This document shows positions 4,448 to 48,913 of a DNA stretch of 52,864 nt, piece after piece (position 1 is the first letter of the stretch; each line of letters begins with the position of its first letter). Origin of the DNA: Candidatus Moraniibacteriota bacterium (GTDB lineage Bacteria; Patescibacteriota; Minisyncoccia; Moranbacterales; UBA11712). The stretch spans positions 1 through 52,864 of the forward strand of contig JAZDKQ010000031.1 in the NCBI GenBank assembly GCA_043802865.1, read 5' to 3'. The translations under genes were made by a program, and so were the position numbers. The notes beneath the pieces are model-generated. The model had not been told where the DNA came from and ran no database searches. It was given only the letters and a program-made list of their open reading frames with translations.

Positions 4448-5047
4448 ATGAAAATCGCAAAAAAAGCCATCTCACTTATTATCGTCAGCGGCATATTGGC
4501 AGCTTCGACTGCGTTTGCCGGAAGTAATCCCCAGCTGTACAGACTTTCAAAGTACAGAGGATTTGTGGGCGAAAAGGTCAAGATCACCGGAATAAATTTC
4601 GGGGGAGAGCAGGGAAAGGTCATGTTTGATGACTGGACAAAAGCTGAAATTGTCAGCTGGAGCAAGAAGAAAATCATCATCCGTGTTCCGGATGTCGCCG
4701 TGACGAAAGCCCATAAGGTCCGCGTCTGCAAGCGATACGACGACTGTGCTAGATCTCAAAAGTTTTTCGTGAAAAGATCGGGGCCAGAGCTTTGGAAGAT
4801 CAAAAATTTGAGCGGTTCCAAGAATTATCAAGGAAAACCGGGAGACACTCTGAAATTGACCGGACAAAATTTCGGCTCAAAAAACATTTCAGTTCTTTTT
4901 GGTGATACTCCGGGAAGAATCACGTCTCGGACAAAAAAATGGATAAAAGTTGTTGTTCCCGAGCTGGAACGCGACAAAACATACGCAGTCAAAGTGACTA
5001 ATGGTTATCCTGATTCCAATACGCAAGATTTCTATATAACTCCATAA
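4448..5047 (+). CDS. secreted protein with two IPT/TIG-like domains
   Basis: Signal peptide MKIAKKAISLIIVSGILAASTAFA. Two repeats of the pattern G..V.ITG.NFG...G.V.F.....A.I.SW....I.V.VP (KITGINFGGEQGKVMF; LKLTGQNFGSKNISVLFGD). Confidence 0.6.
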   Translation: MKIAKKAISLIIVSGILAASTAFAGSNPQLYRLSKYRGFVGEKVKITGINFGGEQGKVMFDDWTKAEIVSWSKKKIIIRVPDVAVTKAHKVRVCKRYDDCARSQKFFVKRSGPELWKIKNLSGSKNYQGKPGDTLKLTGQNFGSKNISVLFGDTPGRITSRTKKWIKVVVPELERDKTYAVKVTNGYPDSNTQDFYITP

Positions 5048-5066
5048 TTAAAGAATTTCATACTTT

Positions 5067-6257
5067 ATGCGTATCGCATATATCGGACAAAAGGGGATTC
5101 CTGCCAAGATTGGCGGCGTGGAAAGATATGTCGACGAGGTGGCGGTTCGGATGGCAAAAAAGGGCCATGACGTTTTTGTCTATGCGAGAAATCATTATAC
5201 TCCGAAAAACTTGAAAAACTATAAAGGAGTAAAGTTGATCCATCTGCCGACGATCAAAACCAAGCATCTTGATGCCATCACGCATACATTCTTCTCGACG
5301 ATCCACGCGTTGTTTCAAAATTACGATGTTATCCATTATCATTCCTTGGGGCCGTCAACGCTTTCTTTTATTCCAAAAATTTTCGCTCGCAAAACGGCCG
5401 TCATATCCACCTATCAGTCCCAGGACTATGAACATTACAAGTGGGGATTTTTTGCGCGAGTCTATTTGCGAATGGGTGAAATGATCACCCTCAAGGTTCC
5501 CGACAGGACAATTTCCGTTACGGATTATTTGAGAAATTATGGCCTCAAAAAATATGGAAAAGATTCGATCGTAATTCCCAATGGCGTGACATTGTTTGAA
5601 AAAGCGGCATCGTTGGAAATTTTCAATAAGTGGTCTCTCAAGAAAAAAGAGTATGTCTTGGCTGTCAGCCGCCTGGTCGCCCACAAAGAAATCCACACGC
5701 TTGTTCAGGCTTTTATCAATCTCAAAGGGCTCGGAAAAGTTGACAAAAAATTCAAGTTGGTAATTGCCGGGGGCGGCAGTTATACGGACAGTTATGTGCG
5801 GGAGCTGAAAGCTATGATTCAAGGCCGAAAGGACATTATCCTTGCTGGAGTGCAAAAGGGAGAAAAATTGGCGTCTCTTTATAAAAACGCGGCTTTTTAT
5901 GTCCAGCCCTCAAGAGCGGAAGGCTTGTCATTGGCGCTCCTCGAATCAATGGGTATGGGCCTGGCTCCGCTTGTCAGCGATATTCCGGAAAATCTTTCGG
6001 CTATCTATGGAAACGGATATGTTTTCCGGATGGGCGACATTTTTGATCTCATAAGCAAGCTTGAATATTTGATAAACCATCCGGCGAAAGTGAAGGCAAT
6101 GGGAGAAAAGGCCCGCCAGATGGCGAAAGAAACATATAATTGGGATAGAATAGTCGATGATATTGAGAGCGTGTACAATGAAACCGTTCTGGAAAAGTTG
6201 AAAAAAACGGATTCAAAGGAAGAAAAACAAATTTTTGTTCATCGTCGGAGAATCTGA
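5067..6257 (+). CDS. glycosyltransferase family 4, DUF1972-like N-terminus (candidate rhamnosyltransferase)
   Basis: MRIAYIGQKGIPAKIGGVERYVDEVAVRMAKKGHDVFVY resembles the DUF1972 N-domain of WchF/RgpA-like enzymes. C-terminal AEGLSLALLESMGMGLAPLVSDIPEN matches EX7E. The specific sugar is an inference from the adjacent rml genes. Confidence 0.78.
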   Translation: MRIAYIGQKGIPAKIGGVERYVDEVAVRMAKKGHDVFVYARNHYTPKNLKNYKGVKLIHLPTIKTKHLDAITHTFFSTIHALFQNYDVIHYHSLGPSTLSFIPKIFARKTAVISTYQSQDYEHYKWGFFARVYLRMGEMITLKVPDRTISVTDYLRNYGLKKYGKDSIVIPNGVTLFEKAASLEIFNKWSLKKKEYVLAVSRLVAHKEIHTLVQAFINLKGLGKVDKKFKLVIAGGGSYTDSYVRELKAMIQGRKDIILAGVQKGEKLASLYKNAAFYVQPSRAEGLSLALLESMGMGLAPLVSDIPENLSAIYGNGYVFRMGDIFDLISKLEYLINHPAKVKAMGEKARQMAKETYNWDRIVDDIESVYNETVLEKLKKTDSKEEKQIFVHRRRI

Positions 6258-15603: not shown

Positions 15604-17520
15604 ATGCACAAAACTCTCCATATCGACATAGACGAAGAAATAACTTCCATAATCGACCGCGTCAGAAAATCCGAGGTGCGGGAAATCATAGTCGTCGCGC
15701 CGAAGAACGCTCTGCTTCTCCAGAGTATCGTTAATTTGAAATTGTTGAAAAAAGAAGCTGATCGCAGAAAAAAGCAGATAATGATCATCACGCAGGACAA
15801 GATTGGAAAAAAACTCATCGAAAAGGCGGGGATTTTAGTGCAAAGCAAAACGCCGAATGACGAATACCTTGAGGACGGACCGGCGGAAGAAGTTTATGAA
15901 TCGAAATATACAAAGGAAGCAGCCGAAATAAAACAGGAGTTGCAGGGAGAAGAAAACAAAAGAGATATAGGATCGGCTGATTTTTTCGCCGAATCTGCAA
16001 AGGAAAAAAAGCCGGAGGACTCCCAAAAAATTGCGAAAGAAGCGGCAAAAAAGCCGGAAATCAAAAAAATCGAGAAAAAAATAGCTTCTGTTCCGGTTCC
16101 GAAAACAAAAAAGATCTCTCGTCCGCGAACAAAGATGTCGGATATTGTGACGGGCCGGCCGGAACCCGAAATAAAAGAGGCTAAAGATCTGATCATACGC
16201 GAAGAAATAGTTGAAAACGAAAATGCCGCCAAGCCCTCGGATTTTTTCGTTGAACCTCCAATCGATTCAAATGTCCAGTCTTCAAAAATGAGCCAGGTTT
16301 CCATGAAAAAGGCGGAGAAGTTTTTCCGCGGATCGAGACGGATGAAAAAAGATATTGAAGTCGCCAGAGTGAACGGAAATGCAAAGAAATATTTCTTTTT
16401 TTTCGCTGGAATTTTCATTTTGTTCGCGGGACTGGCCGGCGCGTATTTTCTTCTTCCCAAAGCGACAATTGCGCTGGAACTCAAAAATCAAGGAAAATCA
16501 GCGGCTTTGGATATCACGGCTGACGCGCAAATCGGCAGTATTGACGCCGGGAAAAAAATCATACCGGCGCATCTGGAGCAAACTGATCAAGAAACAACAG
16601 GCGATTTTGATGCAACCGGCTCAAAATCCGGCGGCGCGAAAGCTTCGGGAAAAGTCGTGATATACAACGAATTCAGCCCGGAAAATCAACCGCTCGTTGC
16701 GACAACGCGCCTTGAAACAGCGGACGGAAAAATTTTTCGGATCACGAAAAATGTGGTTGTCCCGGGTGTGGTCAAAGTTGGAAACGAAACCAAGCCCGGC
16801 GCGATCGAAGTGGATGTTGTCGCGGACAAAGCCGGAGAGGACATGAACATAGACGCGACCGATTTCAGAATTTCCGGATTCAAAAACAATCAGTCGAAAT
16901 ATGAAAAATTCTATGCCAAATCAACGAAGCCGATGACTGGCGGATCTGCGGGAGAAACAAAAGTGATCACGGCGGAAGATATTACAAAAGCCAAAGAAGA
17001 AATCGCTGTTTCCGCCAAAAAAGCGGCTGTGGCAGCGCTGAAAAAAAGCCTTCCCGCCGATCGCAAGATATTTGACAACGCGGTCAATATTGAAGTCTTG
17101 TCCGCTACAACGTCGGATGTTGCCGGCGTGGAAAAAGAAAAATTTTCCGCGACGGCCAAGGTGCGAGCCAGCGTGCTTTCGATTGGGGAGTCGGGTGTGA
17201 AAGAAATTTTGAAAAATGATCTAGCCCACCAGGGAGCGAGTGAAGGCGCGATTTCTTTTGACGAACCGGTCAATTATATCTTGAGTGATTTCGATAATCA
17301 GAAAAAAACTCTGAAATTCTCGGCCAAGGCCGATGCTAATGCGCTTTCCGGCATAGATATCGAAAATTTCAAAAAAGGAATTCTCGGAAAAACCGATGAA
17401 GAAGCGCAAATATACGCCAAAAACTTCCCCGCGATCCAAAAAACAAACATTTCCTTCTGGCCGTTTTTCGTCACCCGCATTCCGATGAATGCGGGAAGAG
17501 TGAATGTCGAGGTGAAGTGA
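15604..17520 (+). CDS. large single-pass membrane protein: cytoplasmic N-domain, K/E-rich linker, TM helix, extracytoplasmic beta-rich domain
   Basis: TM segment YFFFFAGIFILFAGLAGAYFLL at about aa 255-280. The C-terminal part (GSKSGGAKASGKVVIYN...VATTRLETADGKIFRI) faintly resembles baseplate-J-like annotations seen in CPR genomes. Unverified. Confidence 0.6.
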   Translation: MHKTLHIDIDEEITSIIDRVRKSEVREIIVVAPKNALLLQSIVNLKLLKKEADRRKKQIMIITQDKIGKKLIEKAGILVQSKTPNDEYLEDGPAEEVYESKYTKEAAEIKQELQGEENKRDIGSADFFAESAKEKKPEDSQKIAKEAAKKPEIKKIEKKIASVPVPKTKKISRPRTKMSDIVTGRPEPEIKEAKDLIIREEIVENENAAKPSDFFVEPPIDSNVQSSKMSQVSMKKAEKFFRGSRRMKKDIEVARVNGNAKKYFFFFAGIFILFAGLAGAYFLLPKATIALELKNQGKSAALDITADAQIGSIDAGKKIIPAHLEQTDQETTGDFDATGSKSGGAKASGKVVIYNEFSPENQPLVATTRLETADGKIFRITKNVVVPGVVKVGNETKPGAIEVDVVADKAGEDMNIDATDFRISGFKNNQSKYEKFYAKSTKPMTGGSAGETKVITAEDITKAKEEIAVSAKKAAVAALKKSLPADRKIFDNAVNIEVLSATTSDVAGVEKEKFSATAKVRASVLSIGESGVKEILKNDLAHQGASEGAISFDEPVNYILSDFDNQKKTLKFSAKADANALSGIDIENFKKGILGKTDEEAQIYAKNFPAIQKTNISFWPFFVTRIPMNAGRVNVEVK

Positions 17521-17538
17521 GGAGAAAGAAAATAAATG

Positions 17539-17588
17539 GCCAAAACCGTGAAAATAGCACAATTGTCCCTGTTTTTCACGGTTTTGGC
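17539..17588 (+). terminator. 16-bp perfect hairpin downstream of the 638-aa gene (left boundary of the DpnI islet)
   Basis: GCCAAAACCGTGAAAA (17539-17554) pairs with TTTTCACGGTTTTGGC (17573-17588) around an 18-nt loop. There is no clear U-tail, so terminator function is inferred. Confidence 0.5.
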
Positions 17589-17673
17589 GATAAAAGCGTG
17601 AAAAAGAAAGTGAATAGTGGTTGTGAATAGGGATTATAGAAGAAGGTAGGTTATCCACAGGGTAGGCTTGTGC

Positions 17674-17682
17674 TGATATAAT
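17674..17682 (+). promoter_or_regulatory. extended -10 promoter element (TGATATAAT) for the islet genes
   Basis: TGaTATAAT at 17674-17682. The same 9-mer recurs upstream of the clp-like gene (32261-32269) and the response regulator (50328-50336). The -35 region overlaps the TTATCCACA box. Confidence 0.4.
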
Positions 17683-17740
17683 AATAGTGATATAGTGATA
17701 GTGTTGGCAAAAAGAGACATAAGCAAAATAAAATAAAAAA

Positions 17741-17989
17741 ATGGCCAAGGACAAAAAAATATTATCAAACATAAAAGAAAATCCCTTTTTTCAAAAAGAT
17801 AATTTTGTCATATTTAAGTCTGATTGCTTGAAAATACTAGAACAACTTCCGGAAAATTCAATTGATATGATCTTCGCTGATCCGCCATACTTTCTTTCCA
17901 ACGGAGGCTTTACCTGCAAAAGTGGGAAGATGGTTAGTGTGGATAAAGGCAAGTGGGACGCGACCAATACCATAGAAAATAATTTTTAG
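17741..17989 (+). pseudogene. 5' stub (82 codons) of a beta-class N6-adenine/N4-cytosine DNA methyltransferase (DpnIIB/DpnA-like)
   Basis: DCLKILEQLPENSIDMIFADPPYFLSNGG carries motif IV (DPPY). The ORF stops after about 80 aa, and the C-terminal SAM-binding motif I (FxGxG) expected in beta-class enzymes is absent. The DpnI-type gene starts 4 nt later. Confidence 0.75.
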
Positions 17990-17992
17990 TTT

Positions 17993-18763
17993 ATGAATTT
18001 ATTTTTCGATACGAAATTAGCCGATGATTATTCAAGCTTATCGCAAAAAATAAGGGTTTTAACGGAGAATTGGGTTGATAAGCAAGTCTATTGTCCAAAT
18101 TGTGGACATTTAGATATTGATAAATACGGAAACAATAAACCAGTTGCTGATTTTTTCTGTTCAAATTGCAAGGAAGAATACGAGTTAAAAAGTAAAAAAG
18201 TTTCTATCGGGACGAAAATAGTTGACGGTGCCTATAAGACAATGCTTGAGAGATTGCAAAGCACGAATAACCCGAATTTTTTTCTACTCAACTATAATTT
18301 ATCTGATTTTTCCGTATTGAATTTTCTTGTTATCCCAAAGCATTTTTTTGTTCCTGATATTATTGAGAAGCGTAAGGCATTATCGCAAACAGCAAGGCGT
18401 GCCGGTTGGATCGGTTGCAATATTTTATTGCAAAGTATTCCGCAAACTGGAAAAATATTTTTTGTAAAAAATCGAAGAATTGAATCAAAAGAAAACGTTG
18501 TTGCAAATTGGCAAAAAACTCTTTTTCTAAGAGATGAAAAAGAAGTAAGTGTAAAGGGTTGGCTTTTGGATACTATGAGTTGTATTGAAAAACTGGAAAG
18601 AAAAGAATTTACACTTGATGAACTTTATGCGTTTGAAAGTTTTTTAAACAAGAAGCATCCTGAAAACAAACATATAAAAGATAAAATTCGTCAGCAATTG
18701 CAAGTTCTGAGGGATAAAGGATATTTAAAGTTTATAAATCGAGGCAAATATCAATTAATATGA
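17993..18763 (+). CDS. DpnI-type methyl-directed (G6mATC-specific family) type IIM restriction endonuclease
   Basis: End-to-end resemblance, recalled from memory, to S. pneumoniae DpnI: YCPNCG...NKPVADFFCSNCKEEYELKSKK (Zn ribbon plus PD-(D/E)XK), DGAYKTM, NNPNFFLLNY, ARRAGWIGCNI, EFTLDELYAFES, NKHIKDKIRQQLQVLRDKGYL..RGKY (winged-helix half). Confidence 0.88.
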   Translation: MNLFFDTKLADDYSSLSQKIRVLTENWVDKQVYCPNCGHLDIDKYGNNKPVADFFCSNCKEEYELKSKKVSIGTKIVDGAYKTMLERLQSTNNPNFFLLNYNLSDFSVLNFLVIPKHFFVPDIIEKRKALSQTARRAGWIGCNILLQSIPQTGKIFFVKNRRIESKENVVANWQKTLFLRDEKEVSVKGWLLDTMSCIEKLERKEFTLDELYAFESFLNKKHPENKHIKDKIRQQLQVLRDKGYLKFINRGKYQLI

Positions 18764-18936
18764 AACTGAAAAACTTTATAGAAAAACTCGAGGAAATTTC
18801 AAGGGAGCATGGCGAGGAATCGGAAGTTATTATGGCCGATGATATTGCAGTTATTGAGCCAGTTTTTTCAGATCAGTATGGTGGCAAAAAAGTTGTAATA
18901 ACTGATCAAAAATTAAATACAAAAAGGCTTATTTAG
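18760..18936 (+). CDS. 58-aa acidic small protein, translationally coupled to the DpnI-type gene (below the ORF-track cutoff)
   Basis: ATG at 18760 overlaps the DpnI TGA (ATGA). Translation: MKLKNFIEKLEEISREHGEESEVIMADDIAVIEPVFSDQYGGKKVVITDQKLNTKRLI. Resembles small phage/plasmid-borne proteins in pattern only. Confidence 0.42.
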   Translation: MKLKNFIEKLEEISREHGEESEVIMADDIAVIEPVFSDQYGGKKVVITDQKLNTKRLI

Positions 18937-19133
18937 TACTTTGCGGCGGCGGCTGGTCTTTAAGAAAATTTTATACTTCCGGGGAATTGGAGAAATACCT
19001 CGAATATAGAGATGTGGTATATATAATGGCTCTTGAAAATTTTATTGCAAAAGCAAATAAGGGGGAATTATAATTAAACTTATTTCAAAATGACCAATGA
19101 AGCAAAACCAAAAATGAAAGGAGGTGAAAAATA

Positions 19134-19343
19134 ATGGCTAGATACAATAGAAATAGGGGAAAACCGATAACCCAAAAGGATATTCAGGCTGTTAGAATAC
19201 TCGCAAAGAAAAATACTCCAACGGGAATCATTAGTTTGGATATCGGCAGGACTGAAGATTCGGTCAGAAAAATTGCTTCGAATAATAATATTAGTCTGAA
19301 GCCCACAAATCAGAAGCCCTACAACCGCAGAAAAAGCTCGTAA
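19134..19343 (+). CDS. 69-aa basic protein with HTH-like core
   Basis: Strong SD AAAGGAGGTGA 6 nt upstream. The core ITQKDIQAVRILAKKNTPTGIISLDIGRTEDSVRKIA has a helix-turn-helix-like pattern reminiscent of the GcrA N-terminal fold. Basic tail. Confidence 0.5.
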   Translation: MARYNRNRGKPITQKDIQAVRILAKKNTPTGIISLDIGRTEDSVRKIASNNNISLKPTNQKPYNRRKSS

Positions 19344-19438
19344 GTAATATAAAAAACAATGCGTGATTGTTACAGCTTTTTCGCCCAAATAGGCAGGTGG
19401 AGACGCGGATGAAAAACAGTAAAACAGCGCGAAGTTTC

Positions 19439-19465
19439 CCAGCTCGAAAGGGCTGGTTTTTGTTT
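19439..19465 (+). terminator. putative terminator closing the islet
   Basis: CCAGC (19439-19443) / GCTGG (19452-19456) followed by TTTTTGTTT. Confidence 0.4.
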
Positions 19466-19480
19466 CTATATTTCAACCTA

Positions 19481-19508
19481 TTGACAAAAAATCCTGAAAG
19501 CTTATAAT
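19481..19508 (+). promoter_or_regulatory. sigma70-type promoter of the infA-rpoA operon
   Basis: TTGACA (19481-19486), 16-nt spacer, TATAAT (19503-19508). Confidence 0.55.
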
Positions 19509-24756: not shown

Positions 24757-26217
24757 ATGGCCTCTTTTTATCGCCGTGTGTTTTTTTGGGTATTTGCCAT
24801 TCTTTTTCTGCTTACGACTCCGGTGGTGATCCTATATTCGCAGGGCTATCGTTTCAATCAGTATCAGGGAATTTTTATCCACAGCGGATCAATCACCGTG
24901 AAGTCCACCCCATCAAGCGTGAATGTTTTTCTCAATGGCCAATTACAACCATCTGGGAGACTGGATATGATAAACAGCTCTATAACCTTGAATGGATTGC
25001 GTCCGGGAACCTATGATCTCAAAGTTACCGCTGACGGATATGGAGACTGGGAAAAGAATGTTGAGGTCCACAGCGGAGTTTCCACAGAATTTTGGAATAT
25101 TTTTTTGCCGCAAAAAAATTATTTGCCCAAAGAACTGAGTGCCGAAGGAACGCAGAGATATTTTCCCTCTCCTTTCGGAAAAAAAGTTGCTTATTCCAAA
25201 AAAAATGCTGATAATCTTGAAATTTGGTCGCTGGATATGAAAAAAAACGAACCGACGCTGATTTTCTCAAAACCGGGACTGGAATTTTCAACTGATTTGT
25301 TGGAAAACGCCGAATGGGAATCCAATGAACAAATGCTGATTGCCCCTATTCACTCAAACGGCCAAAAGGAGTTTCTTGTTTTGGACTCCGAAAATGTCCA
25401 AGTACCTGCCCTTCTTTCTGAATTATCTTCTCTTCCCGATCTCGACAAGACCCGCTGGAGTCCCGACAACCAGGAGGCTATTTTTTTCACGGCAGCGTCA
25501 AAAGATGGCTTGATGCAAAATCTCTATCGAATTGATTTGGGGACAAAAAATACGGAAATCATTTCCGGGAATGTCAAAGCATATGATCTTTCTGGAAAGA
25601 CCATATATTCGTTGAAGCAAAATAATATTATATACAAGACAGATCTTAATGGAAAAGGCGAAAAACAAATAACTTTTGAGGCTATTCCTTTTTTCGGGGA
25701 AAACCAGCAATCGCGCCTTATTGTGTATGATGAAGACCGCCAGGCTGTCATTTCCGAAGACGGACAGCTCTTTGTTCACAACAACGGAGTAACCGAAACA
25801 CTGAAAAAAATAGGGGATGATGTTTTGGGCGCGCAGTTTTCGGATGACGGAAAAAAACTTTTGTACTGGAACAACCATGAAATCGAAGTTTTGTATCTCA
25901 GGACATGGGATGTCCAACCGCGCCGGAGTGAGAATGAAACGCAGCAAATCATTCGTTTCTCGACTCCGATCAAAAATGTCTTTTGGTATCGAGACTATGA
26001 ACATGTTTTTTTCAGTACTCAAAACAAATTGAAGATCGCCGAGCTTGATCCGCGCGATCATCGGAGTGTTTTTGATATCTGGGAATACACTTCTGAAAAT
26101 TTCACAAGTTCATATGATTCGGCGAATGGAATTTTTTATTTTCTTGATGAGATCAGTGGAAAAAGAAAATTTTTCTATTTAAATATTCCTCTACAGGCAG
26201 GATTTTTCGGAGGATAG
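24757..26217 (+). CDS. PEGA-domain protein with N-terminal anchor and C-terminal beta-propeller-like (TolB/WD40-like) region
   Basis: Likely start MASFYRRVFFWVFAILFLLTTPVVILYSQGYRFN at 24757; the track ORF starts at 24694. PEGA-type ITVKSTPSSVNVFLNG...LRPGTYDLKVTADGYGDWEKNVEV. Confidence 0.7.
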   Translation: MASFYRRVFFWVFAILFLLTTPVVILYSQGYRFNQYQGIFIHSGSITVKSTPSSVNVFLNGQLQPSGRLDMINSSITLNGLRPGTYDLKVTADGYGDWEKNVEVHSGVSTEFWNIFLPQKNYLPKELSAEGTQRYFPSPFGKKVAYSKKNADNLEIWSLDMKKNEPTLIFSKPGLEFSTDLLENAEWESNEQMLIAPIHSNGQKEFLVLDSENVQVPALLSELSSLPDLDKTRWSPDNQEAIFFTAASKDGLMQNLYRIDLGTKNTEIISGNVKAYDLSGKTIYSLKQNNIIYKTDLNGKGEKQITFEAIPFFGENQQSRLIVYDEDRQAVISEDGQLFVHNNGVTETLKKIGDDVLGAQFSDDGKKLLYWNNHEIEVLYLRTWDVQPRRSENETQQIIRFSTPIKNVFWYRDYEHVFFSTQNKLKIAELDPRDHRSVFDIWEYTSENFTSSYDSANGIFYFLDEISGKRKFFYLNIPLQAGFFGG

Positions 26218-26345
26218 ACCCTGTGGATAACTTTCTTGACTTGCATTTAAAAAAAAATGATATATAATAAAATAAATTCTACAAAGTTATCGCAAATAAT
26301 TTTTTAGAAAAAATAAAAAATAAAATTGAAGGGAGGTGAAACACA

Positions 26346-45264: not shown

Positions 45265-45331
45265 TGAAAGTTAGGTGAAAATAGGGGAATTTTTGCCGAG
45301 TCCCTTGAAAATTTGATAAGGAGGTGTCGCG

Positions 45332-45934
45332 ATGAGCGGTTGGCTGAAAAAAGTCGCCGCGAAATGCGCGGCGCAAAAGGGAAGAATCGCAACTTTAGCA
45401 CTCGGCCACACGGTCTTTCATACCACCGAGCAGATTTTCAATTACGGTATCTATATTCCCGTAATTGGATTTTTGGGCGTAATTTACGGCGGTTGTCTAA
45501 TGACCATGCTTTCCTTTCTGACCTGTTATGGCATCCTTAAATTCTACGACTGGTCCAAAAAAGACTGGCTCGGAATAGAAGTTGTCAAGGATGTGAGGGA
45601 TTTCGGTCCGGAGTGGATCAAGAAGCTTCAAGTGAAGTCTATCCTTGGAAAAATTCTTTGGTGGCCTTTTTCAAAAATCATCTTTTTTGTCCTTTGGTCA
45701 CTTAAAAGGGGTGGAGCCATTGCCTTCTTTGCTCTTAGCATTTACACTGATCCTTTCACTACAACAGTGTATTTTCGCAAAGGATCATTCAATGGCCTGT
45801 TAAAAAAAGACTGGTTTATTTTTGTGGCGAGTGTTCTGCTTGGAAATATCTACTGGATCGGCAGAACTTATCTGATCATCCTCGTTGCAAAATTTGGATT
45901 TAACTACTGGTGGAAAATATTTTTCACCAACTAA
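45332..45934 (+). CDS. integral membrane protein, unknown function (4-5 TM)
   Basis: Strong SD; hydrophobic segments (IYIPVIGFLGVIYGGCLMTMLSFLTCYGIL; IIFFVLWSL; FIFVASVLLGNIYWI). A terminator follows. Confidence 0.55.
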   Translation: MSGWLKKVAAKCAAQKGRIATLALGHTVFHTTEQIFNYGIYIPVIGFLGVIYGGCLMTMLSFLTCYGILKFYDWSKKDWLGIEVVKDVRDFGPEWIKKLQVKSILGKILWWPFSKIIFFVLWSLKRGGAIAFFALSIYTDPFTTTVYFRKGSFNGLLKKDWFIFVASVLLGNIYWIGRTYLIILVAKFGFNYWWKIFFTN

Positions 45935-45961
45935 AGCGCGTCTCATTGAGCCGCGCTTTTT
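45933..45961 (+). terminator. rho-independent terminator
   Basis: AAAGCGCG (45933-45940) / CGCGCTTT (45952-45959) with an 11-nt loop and a T-run. Confidence 0.6.
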
Positions 45962-46415
45962 CAATTTCATTTAACTAATCTCACTCCCGCTTCAAGCAAT
46001 TTTTCAAAATTTCTGTTTTTTCTCCAAACTTCCTGAAGTTTTTTGCGTGGATAATCAAATTTTTATATTTAGTCATCGGATTTTCTCGGATGTATTTTTT
46101 TACAATTTTTTGAGCTTGATAATTTTTTGCAAATTATCTGTCATATGCTTTCTGATAATTCAACCCTCAGTTCCTCTAGAAAATCATTTTAAAAGACAAC
46201 TCTTTTTTTGCTATTTTTTTGCTGTTCCTCTATAATTATGATGAAAAAAAATTATAGTTGGTGGGTTACTCCCTATCCTATCAACATTTTTCATGAAACA
46301 ATACGGCCATATGGATGAGCCAAAAATAGGTTACAGCCTGTTGCTTCCCCCTATTTTATGCTACAATAAAAACGGAGAGGGAATTAGTAGTTATAATAAC
46401 TAGCTGTTTTGATTT

Positions 46416-47210
46416 ATGCCTGAAGCAAACATTGTAAGGGGGAAAGATGGCAAACTGCGACTTGAAAATTTTTACACGCCGCTTGCGGAGGCGAAAAAAG
46501 AAATCCGAAAAAGATGGAAGGATAAGAAGTTAAAAAAAGAAATACTGAAATTTCTAGAAAACGACATACCACCTGTTTTCACAAAAAAGCCAAGAGCAGT
46601 GTTTGCAAGGCATGTAGCGACACCGAATCTCGAGCATCAGTATTTTCAGAGGAAGGCTTGTGCTGCTGAGTTGAATCCACTTTTCTTAGAATATCCAGAG
46701 GATAAATTTGCGCCAGAAAATGCACCGAAATATTATCTAGGAAAAATATTTTTTCTTTACAAAAGGGGGAAAAATGAAGGGTATGTTAGTTCCTGCAAAA
46801 AAATAATAGATTTTGATAAATGCTCCGGTAAGTCAATAAGTAAAATATTTTTAAATCAAGTTAAATTGAAAAAATTAGTTGATTTTCATCATACTATTCT
46901 CGATAAAGCCTTACCCAATTTAGATAGATACGACATTTCAAACTGGTATATGAAAAAAGGAGGAAAACCTGAAAAATACTATAAGTATCTGTTTTCTCTA
47001 TTCATTAGAAATGGCATATTGTTTGAAAATTATTTACTCAATAAAGAAGAAATTGATTTTACAAAAAAAATTATTATACCGTCATTTTCAAAAGTTGAAA
47101 AATGTTTTAATATTAAACCATTGATTGTCAGACTTCTTCCGCAAAAAAATGAAGCTGAACCATTCTGGTATTGGTATTCAGGATCTGTTGAAAAATACTT
47201 TACCCAATAA
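46416..47210 (+). CDS. hypothetical 264-aa soluble protein, no recognisable family
   Basis: A long ORF in a very AT-rich stretch. No SD. K-rich with scattered aromatic motifs (LEYPEDKF, FWYWYSGS). Coding is inferred from ORF length only. Confidence 0.45.
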   Translation: MPEANIVRGKDGKLRLENFYTPLAEAKKEIRKRWKDKKLKKEILKFLENDIPPVFTKKPRAVFARHVATPNLEHQYFQRKACAAELNPLFLEYPEDKFAPENAPKYYLGKIFFLYKRGKNEGYVSSCKKIIDFDKCSGKSISKIFLNQVKLKKLVDFHHTILDKALPNLDRYDISNWYMKKGGKPEKYYKYLFSLFIRNGILFENYLLNKEEIDFTKKIIIPSFSKVEKCFNIKPLIVRLLPQKNEAEPFWYWYSGSVEKYFTQ

Positions 47211-47221
47211 ATAAAAAATAA

Positions 47222-48913
47222 ATGAATTTTGACCTAGTTAGTACAGTTGAAACGTGCTACACATACGTCAAAGATAATCCTCCTCTTCTATTCTATTCCC
47301 ATATTCCTACAGCGATAGTTTCTCTACTAATCGGTCTTTTTGTCTTCCTAAAAAATAGGAAGTTACTGATTGGTAAAATACTAATCGCCATTTCTCTCGC
47401 ATTTTCATTGTGGTCTTTTTTGGATCTGATAATATGGACTAGTTATGATAGCGGCAAAATCATGTTCTCATGGGCTATATTAGGAATACTTAGTGATTCC
47501 TTCTTTATACTTAGTCTGTATTTTCTTTATACATTTATTGAAAAAAGAGATGCGCCATTATGGCCTAAAACAATTTTGTCTGCTCTTTTATTACCCGTTA
47601 TTATCTTATCTTTTACAAAATTAAATCTGCTATATTTCGATATTCCAAACTGTGAATCGACTGAAGCAAATTTTATTATAAATTATAATCATTTACTTCA
47701 GCTTTTCGTTGCTTTATGGATTCTTGTCTTGTTTATATCAAAGTATAGGAAATCGGAAAAAGTGGAAAGAAAGCAAATGACAATTGCAACTATTGGAATT
47801 TATTTGTTTTTGCTTTCATTTTTCATAACTGATTTTATATCTGTCAAACTTGACGGAGTTGTTGATTATAATTATGAAATTGGCATGTATGGTCTCTTTG
47901 GTATGGTTTTCTTTGTAGCTTTTCTTGCCTATCTCATCGTCAAATACAAGGCTTTCAATATCAAGCTCATTGCCACGCAGGCTCTCATTACTGCGTTGAT
48001 CATCGGAATTGGTTCGCAATTCTTTTTCATTCAAAATACGACCAATGTTATTCTCAACGCGATAACTTTGGCGTTGGTTCTCGGATTTGGATATATGCTT
48101 GTGAAATCGGTGAAACTTGAAGTCCAACGAAAAGAGGAGCTGCAAAAACTTTCGGATGAGCTCGCGCTTGCCAATGAGAAACTCCGCCAGCTGGACAAGG
48201 CCAAGTCGGAATTCATATCCATTGCGTCGCATCAGTTGCGCACGCCCCTCACTTCGATCAAGGGCTTCGGGTCCTTGCTTCTTGAGGGGACATACGGCGA
48301 GATTCCACAGGCGCAAAAAGGAGTGCTGGAGAAGATATATATTTCCAATGAACGGCTCATTCAATTGGTTGAAGATCTGCTCAATATATCCAGAATCGAA
48401 GCGGGAAGAATGGAATTTGATTTCCAGGAAGCGCAAATTGAGGATCTCGTCCAGGAAGCCGTGACAACCCTCGAACTGGCCGCCAAAGCCAAGAATCTCT
48501 ATCTCCATTGGGAAAAGCCGGCGGTTGCGATGCCGAAACTCAAGATCGACATCACAAAGATCAAAGAAGTGATCTCGAATATGCTGGACAATTCGATCAA
48601 ATATACCCAAAAAGGCGGAATCACGGTTAAGCTTGAAACAAATACTGTCTGGAGCACGGATCATAAAGAACATCAAAGCACTGTCCGCGTCATTGTTTCC
48701 GACACGGGAATCGGAATGGATGAGGAAGAAATCAATATGATCTTCGAGAAATTCCAGCGCGGAAAGCAAGTTTCGCACTATCACACCGACGGTATGGGAC
48801 TGGGAATGTATATCGGCAAGAAAATCGTCGCCGAACACAAAGGCAAGATTTGGGCGGAATCGGAAGGAAAGGGCAAGGGGAGCCGGTTCGTGTTGGAATT
48901 GCCGGTGAACTAG
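47222..48913 (+). CDS. sensor histidine kinase with polytopic (about 7-8 TM) N-terminal sensor domain
   Basis: H-box EFISIASHQLRTPLTSIKG; N-box ISNMLDNSIKYT; G1 box SDTGIGM; G2 box GMGLGMYI. Confidence 0.88.
   Translation: MNFDLVSTVETCYTYVKDNPPLLFYSHIPTAIVSLLIGLFVFLKNRKLLIGKILIAISLAFSLWSFLDLIIWTSYDSGKIMFSWAILGILSDSFFILSLYFLYTFIEKRDAPLWPKTILSALLLPVIILSFTKLNLLYFDIPNCESTEANFIINYNHLLQLFVALWILVLFISKYRKSEKVERKQMTIATIGIYLFLLSFFITDFISVKLDGVVDYNYEIGMYGLFGMVFFVAFLAYLIVKYKAFNIKLIATQALITALIIGIGSQFFFIQNTTNVILNAITLALVLGFGYMLVKSVKLEVQRKEELQKLSDELALANEKLRQLDKAKSEFISIASHQLRTPLTSIKGFGSLLLEGTYGEIPQAQKGVLEKIYISNERLIQLVEDLLNISRIEAGRMEFDFQEAQIEDLVQEAVTTLELAAKAKNLYLHWEKPAVAMPKLKIDITKIKEVISNMLDNSIKYTQKGGITVKLETNTVWSTDHKEHQSTVRVIVSDTGIGMDEEEINMIFEKFQRGKQVSHYHTDGMGLGMYIGKKIVAEHKGKIWAESEGKGKGSRFVLELPVN

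What the first reader, a model, noticed from the sequence alone, without database searches (positions are those of the whole stretch)
17521..19480. DpnI-type methyl-directed restriction cassette in an AT-rich islet wedged directly upstream of the infA-rpoA ribosomal operon
ORF 17993..18763 matches S. pneumoniae DpnI from end to end, as I recall that sequence. Shared strings include:
- the Zn-ribbon CPNCG...CSNCK
- the PD-(D/E)XK core PVADF...EYELKSKK
- ARRAGWIGCNI
- the winged-helix half HIKDKIRQQLQVLRDKGYL..RGKY

It is packaged with a dead methyltransferase stub, an ATGA-coupled 58-aa acidic ORF and a 69-aa basic HTH-like ORF with its own strong SD. The segment is visibly more AT-rich than its flanks. 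It is bounded on the left by a 16-bp perfect hairpin (17539-17588) and on the right by a terminator plus the infA promoter.

Modification-dependent defence in ultra-small CPR-type genomes is poorly explored. The two small partner ORFs have no assigned role, so the four-gene unit could be a variant modification-dependent defence module rather than a lone enzyme.
Basis: partly seen in the sequence, partly recalled or inferred. Interest (0 to 1): 0.75.

Follow-up and report, generated by a model that had tools for sequence, protein, structure and literature searches.

The report
Acquired DpnI methyl-directed restriction islet
A 1,950-base foreign segment upstream of infA in a Moranbacteria-type ultra-small bacterium carries an intact DpnI-family enzyme, predicted to cut only adenine-methylated GATC; this enzyme kind is common and already annotated in the group, but the flanking remnants show that DpnI replaced an older GATC methylase-nuclease pair.

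Summary
ORF 17993-18763 is a full-length DpnI-family type IIM endonuclease. It matches Pfam DpnI (1e-82) and DpnI_C (1e-32) and PDB 4ESJ (1e-84). All 16 experimentally characterised residues are conserved.

It lies in a 1,950-nt, low-GC insertion (17528-19477). The closest sibling genome lacks this insertion: there the 638-aa gene's stop is about 11 nt from the infA -35 box.

The 82-aa stub is the 5' end of a DpnA/LlaDCHIB-type GATC adenine methylase. The same stub|DpnI junction recurs in 13 of 55 DpnI lineages, often with 3' remnants of a MutH-like nuclease. DpnI therefore replaced the interior of a GATC methylase-nuclease operon in an ancestral donor, which is "Dam replacement" as known from Neisseria and pneumococcus.

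orf58 belongs to a real ~52-aa family coupled to DpnI in 10 of 64 lineages. Most of the others carry a different small ORF family.

orf69 is a Myb-like three-helix HTH found in defence islands. Its closest homologs co-occur with GTGATA repeats at the cassette promoter, so it may be a controller.

DpnI homologs at 75-87% identity are abundant and already annotated in Patescibacteria. Verdict: a new member of a known kind, of moderate interest.

The parts
17528..19477 (.). The inserted islet (1,950 nt, GC 0.34)
   Evidence: blastn homology to sibling L005 stops at 17527 and resumes at 19478. GC is 0.339 against the window's 0.425, sd 0.031.
17536..17591 (+). Strong stem-loop at the left end of the insert (19-bp stem, 16 bp perfect, 18-nt loop). 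Its role is unknown and no U-tract follows it on the + strand.
   Evidence: dG -27.6, z -4.0. It is absent from L005. No Rfam match.
17650..17682 (+). Predicted promoter of the stub-DpnI-orf58 operon. The GTTATCCACAG motif supplies the -35 (TCCACA); a 17-nt spacer and an extended -10 (TGATATAAT) follow.
   Evidence: The motif occurs 3 times in the window against 0.25 expected. It also lies 65-100 nt upstream of island genes in L097, L031 and L103.
17685..17700 (+). Two direct TAGTGATA repeats just downstream of the -10; a putative operator.
   Evidence: GTGATATAGTGATA is found only here, in L099/L100 and in L103 within 682 kb. All of these loci carry orf69 homologs. Related GTGATA-N3-TATCAC palindromes lie at the promoters of L011, L097 and L099.
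17741..17989 (+). 82-aa 5' stub of a beta-class (DpnA/LlaDCHIB-type) N6-adenine DNA methyltransferase. It keeps motif IV (DPPY) and lacks everything from about residue 86 on, including the AdoMet-binding motif.
   Evidence: PADLOC MTase_II 1.8e-21, positions 4-68/260. It is 72-75% identical to the N-terminus of the intact 273-aa MTase in L011 and 51% to the pSRQ700 beta MTase. The junction with DpnI is conserved in other loci.
17993..18763 (+). Intact DpnI-family type IIM (Gm6ATC-dependent) restriction endonuclease, 256 aa
   Evidence: All 16 characterised residues are conserved (residues taken from PMC3424567 and PMC4117772).
18760..18936 (+). orf58: a small acidic protein (helix + 3 strands) of an unannotated ~52-aa family, ATGA-coupled to DpnI
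   Evidence: 37 representative clusters; alignment; model pLDDT 76. It lies downstream of DpnI in 10 of 64 lineages, and also in L097 and in the orf58-seeded locus L104.
19134..19343 (+). orf69: a basic three-helix (Myb-like) HTH protein with an invariant SLKPTNQxPY tail and its own strong SD. It is a candidate regulator.
   Evidence: 38 homologs; alignment; model pLDDT 84 with helices at 14-25, 30-37 and 41-50. The top fold matches are HTH DNA binders, none of them significant. There is weak Myb signal. Homologs sit in defence-island contexts in all 7 independent homolog loci.
19439..19467 (+). Intrinsic terminator belonging to the orf69 unit; it forms the right end of the insert
   Evidence: It is conserved at DNA level downstream of the orf69 homologs in L099 and L103.
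19481..19508 (+). Host infA promoter (TTGACA-16-TATAAT). It is not part of the insert.
   Evidence: It is conserved in L005 and L006.
15604..17520 (+). Host 638-aa gene forming the left flank (no known domains)

Best explanation
The segment 17528-19477 is a horizontally acquired, compact restriction cassette. Its working part is a solitary DpnI-family type IIM endonuclease.

Shown here:
- The closest sibling has an empty site.
- The enzyme is intact, with every catalytic (E25/D53/E64/K66), zinc (4 Cys), m6A-pocket (L129/R135/W138/G140), guanine-readout (N48/R126) and winged-helix (K229/R231) residue conserved.
- The 82-aa stub is the 5' end of a DpnA/LlaDCHIB-type GATC adenine methylase.
- The identical stub|DpnI junction recurs in other Patescibacteria. 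In the commonest form the MTase frame ends ...DFEFHL* and its TGA overlaps the DpnI ATG.
- Those other loci often carry 3' remnants of a MutH-like nuclease downstream.

Inferred from the biochemistry of R.DpnI: the enzyme binds fully methylated Gm6ATC with both domains and cuts it bluntly. The host's own GATC sites are plentiful (321 in the window) and presumably unmethylated, so they are spared. The enzyme therefore destroys phage, plasmid or transforming DNA that comes from GATC-methylating cells.

Inferred history: in an ancestral donor, DpnI plus a small downstream ORF replaced the interior of a methylase + nuclease operon. This is 'Dam replacement', and it is forced because DpnI and GATC methylation cannot coexist. 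The composite later landed, already formed, in the 11-nt spacer between the 638-aa gene and the infA promoter of this lineage.

Inferred expression: the stub keeps the old promoter and start region and acts as a leader ORF that ends 3 nt before the DpnI ATG. DpnI would then be made by translational coupling.

orf58 (ATGA-coupled) and orf69 (HTH with its own SD and terminator) are accessory genes. orf58 has no known function. orf69 is probably a DNA-binding regulator.
For: DpnI membership and residues; residue roles from PMC3424567 and PMC4117772.

Insertion and empty site.

Low GC.

Stub as an MTase 5' end:
- Family matches and the DNA alignment to L011.
- An intact homolog sits beside a MutH-family nuclease in L011.
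- The closest annotated relatives are the second methylase of Dam-MTase-REase operons, including pSRQ700/LlaDCHI. LlaDCHI recognises GATC (PMC4190342).

Conserved junction and remnants.

Independent second case: DpnI sits behind a truncated alpha-class Dam in L097.

Selection: DpnI family dN/dS is about 0.05-0.1.

GATC and methylases in the window:
- GATC is not avoided (321 sites, O/E 1.17).
- No other DNA methylase homolog is detected in the window.

Precedents: Neisseria drg (PMC516771; PMC4269198) and the pneumococcal DpnI/DpnII cassettes (PMC3812788).
Against: - No activity, methylation or expression data exist for this organism. The host's GATC methylation state is unknown, and the window covers only part of the genome.
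- The insertion mechanism is unexplained: there is no integrase, transposase, tRNA, target-site duplication or terminal inverted repeat.
- The GATC specificity of the ancestral MTase is inferred from homology (about 50% identity to LlaDCHIB/DpnA-type enzymes) and from its MutH-family partner. Its best PDB match is CcrM, which recognises GANTC.
- Where dS is measurable the stub shows dN/dS of 0.06-0.34. This could mean it is more than a relic.
- The window's junction has drifted: a TAG stop lies 3 nt before the ATG instead of the ATGA overlap. Translational coupling is therefore plausible but not assured.
Confidence: 0.8

Rival explanations
1. The four genes form one regulated module. orf69 would be a controller-type regulator that binds the TAGTGATA repeats at the stub-DpnI promoter, and orf58 would be a coupled modulator of DpnI. 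The promoter/operator at the left and orf69 + terminator at the right would form a portable frame in which different restriction cargo is exchanged.
For: - GTGATATAGTGATA occurs only in loci that carry orf69 homologs, and always at a promoter.
- GTGATA-N3-TATCAC palindromes centred on a -10-like box lie upstream of the R-M operons in L011, L097 and L099.
- All four loci with orf69 homologs of at least 76% identity have the repeats; the four with 73% or less do not.
- L097 holds DpnI, an orf58 homolog and an orf69 homolog in one island.
- L099 has the same operator and the same orf69 + terminator, but a different MTase + DpnII-family REase between them.
- orf69 is modelled as an HTH.
Against: - The co-occurrence could simply reflect shared ancestry of one cassette backbone.
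- L011 has the palindrome but no orf69 homolog in the 9.8 kb held.
- 69 other DpnI lineages have no orf69 within 4 kb.
- S. pneumoniae DpnI works alone in vitro (PMC3424567).
- orf69 relatives also sit among prophage tail genes, with no restriction genes nearby.
- No binding data exist.
Confidence: 0.35
2. The stub is itself a functional small protein, for example a DNA- or DpnI-binding factor derived from the methylase N-terminus, rather than a relic or leader ORF.
For: - An intact 75-86-aa reading frame with DPPY is retained in many diverged loci.
- dN/dS is 0.06-0.34 where it can be measured.
Against: - The stub is absent from 42 of 55 assessable DpnI lineages.
- Several copies are decayed: no start codon in L024, L025 and L027; an internal deletion in L066; premature stops in L023, L050 and L082.
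- It lacks the AdoMet-binding half of the enzyme.
- Low dN/dS could be inherited from functional methylases through repeated recombination. dS is mostly saturated.
Confidence: 0.1
3. The cassette is a decaying, non-functional hitch-hiker. Alternatively, DpnI here serves mainly as a barrier to gene flow or has physiological effects, as proposed for Neisseria drg, rather than acting in anti-phage defence.
For: - The junction has drifted from the ancestral ATGA overlap.
- Neither the nuclease remnant nor the commoner partner ORF is retained.
- Neisseria drg affects viability and biofilm formation, and is proposed to act as a barrier to genetic exchange (PMC4269198; PMC516771).
Against: - The DpnI frame is full-length with every key residue conserved.
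- A promoter, SD sequences and a terminator are all present.
- The family is under strong purifying selection.
Confidence: 0.1

Closest known systems
S. pneumoniae DpnI cassette (dpnC-dpnD), alternative to the DpnII cassette (dpnM-dpnA-dpnB)
   Same: - The enzyme family is the same: 51% identity from end to end, with all functional residues conserved.
- A small ORF is coupled downstream of the endonuclease.
- DpnI is an evolutionary alternative to a GATC-methylating R-M system.
- The window's stub is homologous to the dpnA-type second methylase of DpnII-like systems (PMC3812788).
   Different: - In this window and its relatives the replaced system's remnants are physically attached to DpnI: an MTase 5' stub, and in relatives a MutH-like nuclease 3' stub.
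- The replaced nuclease is MutH-family, not DpnII-family.
- The downstream ORF (orf58) has no Pfam hit at all at E <= 1, so none to DpnD/PcfM.
- An extra HTH gene is present.
- The cassette sits at a site that is empty in siblings, not at a shared polymorphic locus.
Neisseria drg ('dam-replacing gene', NmeBII), the name-giver of Pfam PF06044
   Same: A low-GC DpnI-family gene inserted in place of a GATC adenine methylase, with dam+ and drg+ genotypes mutually exclusive (PMC516771, PMC4269198).
   Different: - In Neisseria the replaced gene is the chromosomal alpha-class dam at the leuS/dam locus.
- Here the replaced gene is a beta-class R-M methylase.
- Here the replacement predates arrival in this genome.
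- An alpha-class Dam stub in front of DpnI is seen in L097.
Controller (C) protein-regulated type II R-M systems
   Same: A small HTH protein encoded in the cassette, and repeated or palindromic sites overlapping the cassette promoter's -10 region.
   Different: - orf69 is a ~68-aa Myb-like three-helix protein, not an Xre-type C protein.
- It lies at the 3' end with its own SD and terminator, not upstream of the nuclease.
- Binding is untested.
LlaDCHI (pSRQ700) / DpnII-type GATC systems
   Same: The intact relative of the stub (L011 MTase) is 50% identical to the second, beta-class methylase of the Dam-MTase-REase operon on pSRQ700. The stub itself is 51% identical to it.
   Different: In the CPR relatives the methylase is paired with a MutH-family nuclease and no Dam-type first methylase. 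In the window only 82 codons survive.

Membership tests
DpnI family (Pfam PF06044 + PF17726; type IIM Gm6ATC-dependent endonuclease) | Full-length match to both the catalytic and the C-terminal winged-helix domain models | tested here: met
   PF06044 1.4e-82 (profile 1-182/183) and PF17726 1.2e-32 (3-69/70). 4ESJ 1e-84 over residues 1-254.
DpnI family (Pfam PF06044 + PF17726; type IIM Gm6ATC-dependent endonuclease) | PD-(D/E)XK catalytic residues E25, D53, E64 and K66, and the four-Cys zinc site | tested here: met
   All are conserved at identical positions. Their roles come from PMC3424567.
DpnI family (Pfam PF06044 + PF17726; type IIM Gm6ATC-dependent endonuclease) | m6A methyl-binding cleft (L129, R135, W138, G140), guanine readout (N48, R126) and wH DNA-binding residues (K229, R231) | tested here: met
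   All are conserved. Their roles come from PMC4117772 and PMC3424567.
DpnI family (Pfam PF06044 + PF17726; type IIM Gm6ATC-dependent endonuclease) | Cleavage requires N6-methyladenine in GATC | not testable with these tools
   Needs an enzyme assay on Dam+ versus Dam- DNA.
DpnI family (Pfam PF06044 + PF17726; type IIM Gm6ATC-dependent endonuclease) | The host lacks GATC adenine methylation | tested here: inconclusive
   No DNA methylase homolog other than the stub is found in the 52.8-kb window. GATC is abundant, O/E 1.17. The rest of the genome and its methylome are unseen.
Beta-class N6-adenine DNA methyltransferase (PF01555), for the 82-aa ORF | Motif IV (DPPY) near the N-terminus | tested here: met
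   DPPYFLSNGG is present. It aligns to the N-termini of the MTase models.
Beta-class N6-adenine DNA methyltransferase (PF01555), for the 82-aa ORF | Target-recognition region and C-terminal AdoMet-binding motif I | tested here: not met
   The ORF stops at residue 82 of about 270. Homology to the intact L011 enzyme ends at 17986. No downstream remnant exists in the window. It is therefore not a functional methylase.
'Dam-replacing' DpnI cassette | The DpnI-family gene occupies the place of a GATC adenine methylase gene | tested here: met
   The stub|DpnI junction is shared with 13 of 55 lineages. MutH-like 3' remnants occur in 7 of 64. A Dam-type stub lies in front of DpnI in L097.
'Dam-replacing' DpnI cassette | The replacement happened at this chromosomal locus in this lineage | tested here: not met
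   Siblings L005, L006, L007 and L013-L015 have no methylase at this site, only the 638-aa gene followed by infA. The composite arrived ready-made.
Controller (C) proteins of R-M systems, for orf69 | Xre-type HTH encoded upstream of, and co-transcribed with, the nuclease | tested here: not met
   The window's orf69 has no Pfam, NCBIfam or PADLOC hit. Across the family there is only weak Myb-like signal. The gene is downstream and has its own SD.
Controller (C) proteins of R-M systems, for orf69 | Binds repeats overlapping the cassette promoter | tested here: inconclusive
   GTGATA repeats co-occur with close orf69 homologs at cassette promoters. There is no binding evidence.
DpnD/PcfM family (the pneumococcal DpnI partner; the Pfam accession is recalled from memory), for orf58 | Match to the family profile | tested here: not met
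   orf58 has no Pfam family at E <= 1. The alternative downstream ORFs have none at E <= 0.01.

The most novel reading that the evidence does not exclude
The islet would be an instance of a portable, regulated restriction frame that has not been described. Its parts would be:
- a promoter carrying GTGATA repeats or palindromes over the -10 box;
- a small Myb-like HTH protein (the orf69 family, with an invariant SLKPTNQxPY tail) that binds those repeats as a new class of R-M controller;
- interchangeable cargo between them: GATC methylase + MutH-like nuclease, MTase + DpnII-family nuclease, or stub-DpnI.

DpnI would additionally need one of two unrelated small coupled proteins (the orf58 family or the 'FQLW' family) to modulate its activity.
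Probability: 0.3. Interest if true: 0.55.

Novelty: new member of a known kind. Interest (0 to 1): 0.35.

Why it matters
The core finding is ordinary: one more solitary DpnI-type enzyme in a phylum where thousands are already predicted.

Three by-products have some value.
1. The conserved methylase-stub|DpnI junction and the nuclease remnants are physical footprints of the switch from GATC-methylating to methyl-GATC-cutting restriction. They show that 'Dam replacement' is widespread in Patescibacteria and spreads as a ready-made composite.
2. About 77% of DpnI lineages carry one of two unrelated small ORFs tightly coupled downstream. This hints at an unrecognised partner function, which is also unresolved for pneumococcal dpnD.
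3. The orf69 family and its GTGATA repeats give a concrete, cheaply testable candidate for a new type of restriction-cassette regulator.

GATC methylation state may also partition gene flow and phage host range among co-occurring ultra-small bacteria.

Tried and rejected
- **Nuclease or methylase remnant downstream of DpnI in the window:** none found (tblastn).
- **Integration hot spot at the 638-aa|infA junction:** rejected. Siblings without an adjacent infA (L009-L012, L016) simply have a different synteny (KH protein, trmD, ftsW, murG), not insertions.
- **Mobility signatures:** no tRNA, no Rfam family, no target-site duplication or terminal inverted repeats, and no recombinase gene.
- **Small ORFs against PADLOC, PHROGs, Pfam and NCBIfam:** nothing significant. 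The only hit for orf69 was phrog_323 at 5e-4.
- **Fold searches:** orf58 has no PDB analogue and only weak similarity to uncharacterised ~55-aa phage proteins. orf69 gives a generic HTH with no significant specific match.
- **GcrA-like idea for orf69 (from memory):** only 1 of 37 family members gives a GcrA hit, at E = 0.09. Dropped.
- **dN/dS of the stub:** dS is saturated for most pairs, so the test is only indicative.
- **Scan of viral contigs for the palindrome TAGTGATA-N3-TATCACTA:** 19 hits, judged not clearly above chance for a collection of that size (no expectation was computed). Only L121 places it directly upstream of a methylase.
- **GATC avoidance as a footprint of past GATC restriction:** not seen (O/E 1.17).
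- **Exact-sequence lookup of the window's DpnI:** not on record.
Full report
**1. Observation**

- an 82-aa ORF (17741-17989) containing DPPY;
- a 256-aa ORF (17993-18763);
- a 58-aa ORF (18760-18936) whose ATG overlaps the preceding TGA;
- a 69-aa ORF (19134-19343) behind AAAGGAGGTG.

The 256-aa protein is a DpnI-family enzyme:
- It matches Pfam DpnI (1.4e-82, the full profile) and DpnI_C (1.2e-32).
- It matches PADLOC 'type II methyl-directed restriction enzyme' (3.8e-118).
- It matches S. pneumoniae R.DpnI (PDB 4ESJ) at 1e-84 over residues 1-254.

GC falls to 0.29-0.35 across the segment against 0.42-0.53 outside it. The segment is one of the two lowest-GC stretches in the window. The left hairpin is real: a 16-bp perfect core within a 19-bp stem, dG -27.6 kcal/mol, z -4.0. 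A terminator (19439-19456) and a perfect sigma-70-type promoter (19481-19508) close the right side.

**2. The enzyme**

I aligned the protein to R.DpnI (129/252 identical) and checked the residues whose roles were shown experimentally. The sources were PMC3424567 and PMC4117772. All of the following are conserved:
- catalytic E25, D53, E64, K66;
- zinc ligands C34, C37, C56, C59;
- guanine readout N48, R126;
- the m6A cleft L129, R135, W138, G140;
- winged-helix K229, R231.

Among homologs dN/dS is about 0.05-0.1. The protein meets every sequence-level criterion of the family. Activity and host methylation state cannot be tested with these tools.

**3. It is an insertion**

Searching one genome per species with the flanking 638-aa protein found relatives in Moranbacteria/Parcubacteria MAGs. 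The closest is L005, with FtsA-like 96%, 638-aa protein 83% and InfA 96% identity. In L005 the 638-aa gene's stop is followed about 11 nt later by the infA -35 box. L006, L007 and L013-L015 show the same adjacency.

Nucleotide homology to L005 ends at 17527 and resumes at 19478, so 1,950 nt are foreign. The infA promoter is host DNA. The hairpin and the terminator belong to the insert. I found no tRNA, recombinase, target duplication or terminal inverted repeat, so the insertion mechanism is unknown.

**4. The stub**

- The 82-aa ORF matches the first quarter of type II beta-class N6-adenine methylase models.
- L011 carries an intact 273-aa homolog: 72-75% identical to the stub, with DNA homology from about 20 nt upstream of the ATG to the stub's stop.
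- In L011 this methylase is followed by a 214-aa MutH-family nuclease (PF02976 3.5e-9; PDB MutH 2e-6).
- The intact methylase is about 50% identical to the second methylase of Dam-MTase-REase operons on plasmids, including pSRQ700. pSRQ700 encodes LlaDCHI, a DpnII-like GATC system (PMC6458302; PMC4190342).
- A DpnA sequence that I recalled from memory is also 50% identical. Treat that as a lead only.
- The best PDB match is CcrM, so GATC specificity is likely but not proven.

**5. The stub-DpnI pairing is recurrent**

Homologs of the stub in the protein database are overwhelmingly other 80-90-aa ORFs on long contigs. I fetched 80 metagenomic DpnI loci and added 4 earlier ones. After de-duplication these make 69 lineages.
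- 13 of 55 assessable lineages carry the stub directly upstream of DpnI.
- The junction is the same in nearly all of them. The methylase frame ends ...DFEFHL*, and its TGA overlaps the DpnI ATG.
- 7 of 64 lineages also carry 3' remnants of the MutH-like nuclease downstream.

The ancestral composite was therefore: methylase 5' stub | DpnI + small ORF | nuclease 3' stub.

In L097 a DpnI gene is preceded instead by the first ~35 profile positions of an alpha-class Dam (PF02086). That is an independent replacement. This is what the Pfam name 'Dam-replacing family' describes for Neisseria drg (PMC516771; PMC4269198). It also parallels the pneumococcal DpnI/DpnII alternative cassettes (PMC3812788).

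Because the sibling site is empty, the window received the composite ready-made. Its junction has drifted slightly (TAG, 3 nt, then ATG).

The stub's dN/dS is 0.06-0.34 where measurable. However, the stub is missing from most lineages and is visibly decayed in several. I read it as a relic that may still serve as a leader ORF.

**6. orf58**

- orf58 belongs to a genuine family of ~52-aa proteins: 37 representative clusters, with the consensus MKLK.FI.KL..I....G...EVVMAD.I.VV.PVF.........VVITD.
- The model is one helix plus three strands, pLDDT 76.
- It has no PDB analogue and only weak resemblance to uncharacterised phage mini-proteins.
- It lies within about 11 nt downstream of DpnI in most of the loci that carry it and 180-300 nt downstream in the rest, in 10 of 64 lineages overall. 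It also follows DpnI in L097 and in L104, which was reached by an orf58-seeded lookup.
- 40 of 64 lineages instead carry a different small acidic family. This family has 63-aa and 142-aa forms, shown to be homologous by hhalign (91%, 1e-6), and it is unrelated to orf58.
- In total 49 of 64 lineages have one or the other.
- None of these ORFs gave any Pfam family hit, so none matches DpnD/PcfM.

A coupled small partner is thus the rule, but its function is unknown.

**7. orf69**

- It has 38 homologs of 67-69 aa with invariant NTPT, R and SLKPTNQxPY.
- The model is a confident three-helix bundle, pLDDT 84.
- Its best fold matches are all HTH DNA binders, none significant. There is weak Myb-like sequence signal.
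- It is absent within 4 kb of all 69 other DpnI lineages.
- In all seven independent homolog loci, its homologs lie in defence islands, as does the window's own copy:
  - the DpnI + Zeta-toxin island;
  - an MTase + DpnII-family REase;
  - Vsr + a C5 methylase;
  - two C5 methylases + HNH;
  - a type I S subunit;
  - a FokI-type R-M + CBASS + integrase;
  - AIPR.
- A further 66 relatives occur in viral or prophage contigs. Some are next to HsdM, and many are in a moron-like position by tail genes.

**8. A shared promoter/operator**

- The predicted promoter of the stub operon (17654-17682, extended -10) is followed by TAGTGATA-TAGTGATA (17685-17700).
- GTGATATAGTGATA occurs only four times in 682 kb of collected sequence: here; upstream of the M-R-52aa-orf69 operon in L099 and its near-identical copy L100; and upstream of the orf69 homolog in L103.
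- The palindrome GTGATA-N3-TATCAC is centred on a -10-like box. It occurs only upstream of the intact methylase-nuclease operon of L011, of the Dam-stub-DpnI operon and a Fic gene in L097, and of the L099 operon.
- All four loci whose orf69 homolog is at least 76% identical to the window's carry these repeats. The four with 73% or less do not.
- The orf69 gene and its terminator are also conserved at DNA level in L099 and L103.

This is consistent with orf69 being a controller that binds these repeats. It is equally consistent with a shared cassette backbone. I give the regulatory reading about 0.3-0.35.

**9. Host compatibility**

GATC is frequent in the window (321 sites, O/E 1.17). No DNA methylase homolog other than the stub is detected there. 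Both are as expected for a DpnI carrier, but the rest of the genome is unseen.

**10. Novelty**

- DpnI homologs at 75-87% identity are abundant, and many are named as such in Patescibacteria MAG records.
- The one paper in the library that mentions both DpnI and Patescibacteria is on an unrelated topic.
- The window's element is a new member of the known DpnI / Dam-replacing kind.
- Three side-results are modestly new and testable: the conserved replacement scars, the near-universal small coupled ORF, and the orf69/GTGATA pairing.

Noticed in passing
window 45300-47250: A second low-GC stretch (GC about 0.31, the lowest in the window). It carries a 200-aa membrane-like ORF (45332-45934) and a 264-aa ORF of unknown function (46416-47210). 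It may be another acquired islet.
   Followed up: no
window 26221-26231 (- strand) and 24874-24884; L097 1324, 4889, 7015; L031 263; L103 878: GTTATCCACAG(GG) contains what I recall as the DnaA-box consensus TTATCCACA. It is over-represented (3 against 0.25 expected in the window) and sits 65-160 nt upstream of several island genes, where TCCACA serves as a -35. It may be a promoter element typical of these islands or of this lineage.
   Followed up: partly
L001-L004 and about 40 of 64 DpnI lineages, for example L002 6776-6967 and L042 4806-5234: A small acidic ORF family lies 4-40 nt downstream of DpnI. The 63-aa form ends ...Y.EDY.NFTELVWEDDK.LDF.D.ETYP.FQLW; a 142-aa form is homologous. It is the commonest DpnI neighbour and has no Pfam match.
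   Followed up: partly
L097 1399-7969: A defence/toxin island with the order: alpha-class Dam 93-aa stub, DpnI, 142-aa partner, orf58 homolog, DUF6814-like ORF, Zeta toxin, orf69 homolog, RNase T-like exonuclease, Fic/RhuM. The GTGATA palindrome appears at two of its promoters.
   Followed up: partly
L064 220-576: Here the methylase remnant in front of DpnI is longer (118 aa, reaching ...HGTLWVSGTV*) and has a different breakpoint. This suggests either a separate replacement event or recombination with an intact methylase.
   Followed up: no
L121 4887-4905: In a viral contig the palindrome TAGTGATA-N3-TATCACTA lies about 30 nt upstream of a beta-class methylase gene (4935-5718).
   Followed up: no
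L131-L196 (viral contigs): orf69-family genes are common in high-GC prophages. In 21 of them the gene sits on the strand opposite to genes that look, by eye, like lambda tail genes K and L (a moron-like position). In a few loci it lies beside a gene that looks like a type I HsdM methylase.
   Followed up: partly
window 15604-17520: The 638-aa host protein between the FtsA-like gene and infA is conserved across Parcubacteria-type genomes, with a conserved N-terminus (HIDIDEEITSIIDR) and C-terminal half. It has no Pfam, NCBIfam, PADLOC or PHROG match.
   Followed up: no
L110 558-8906; the P0246 context: FtsK_gamma-domain proteins occur near orf69 homologs in two unrelated defence islands. One of these islands also has CBASS (SMODS) and a tyrosine integrase.
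   Followed up: no
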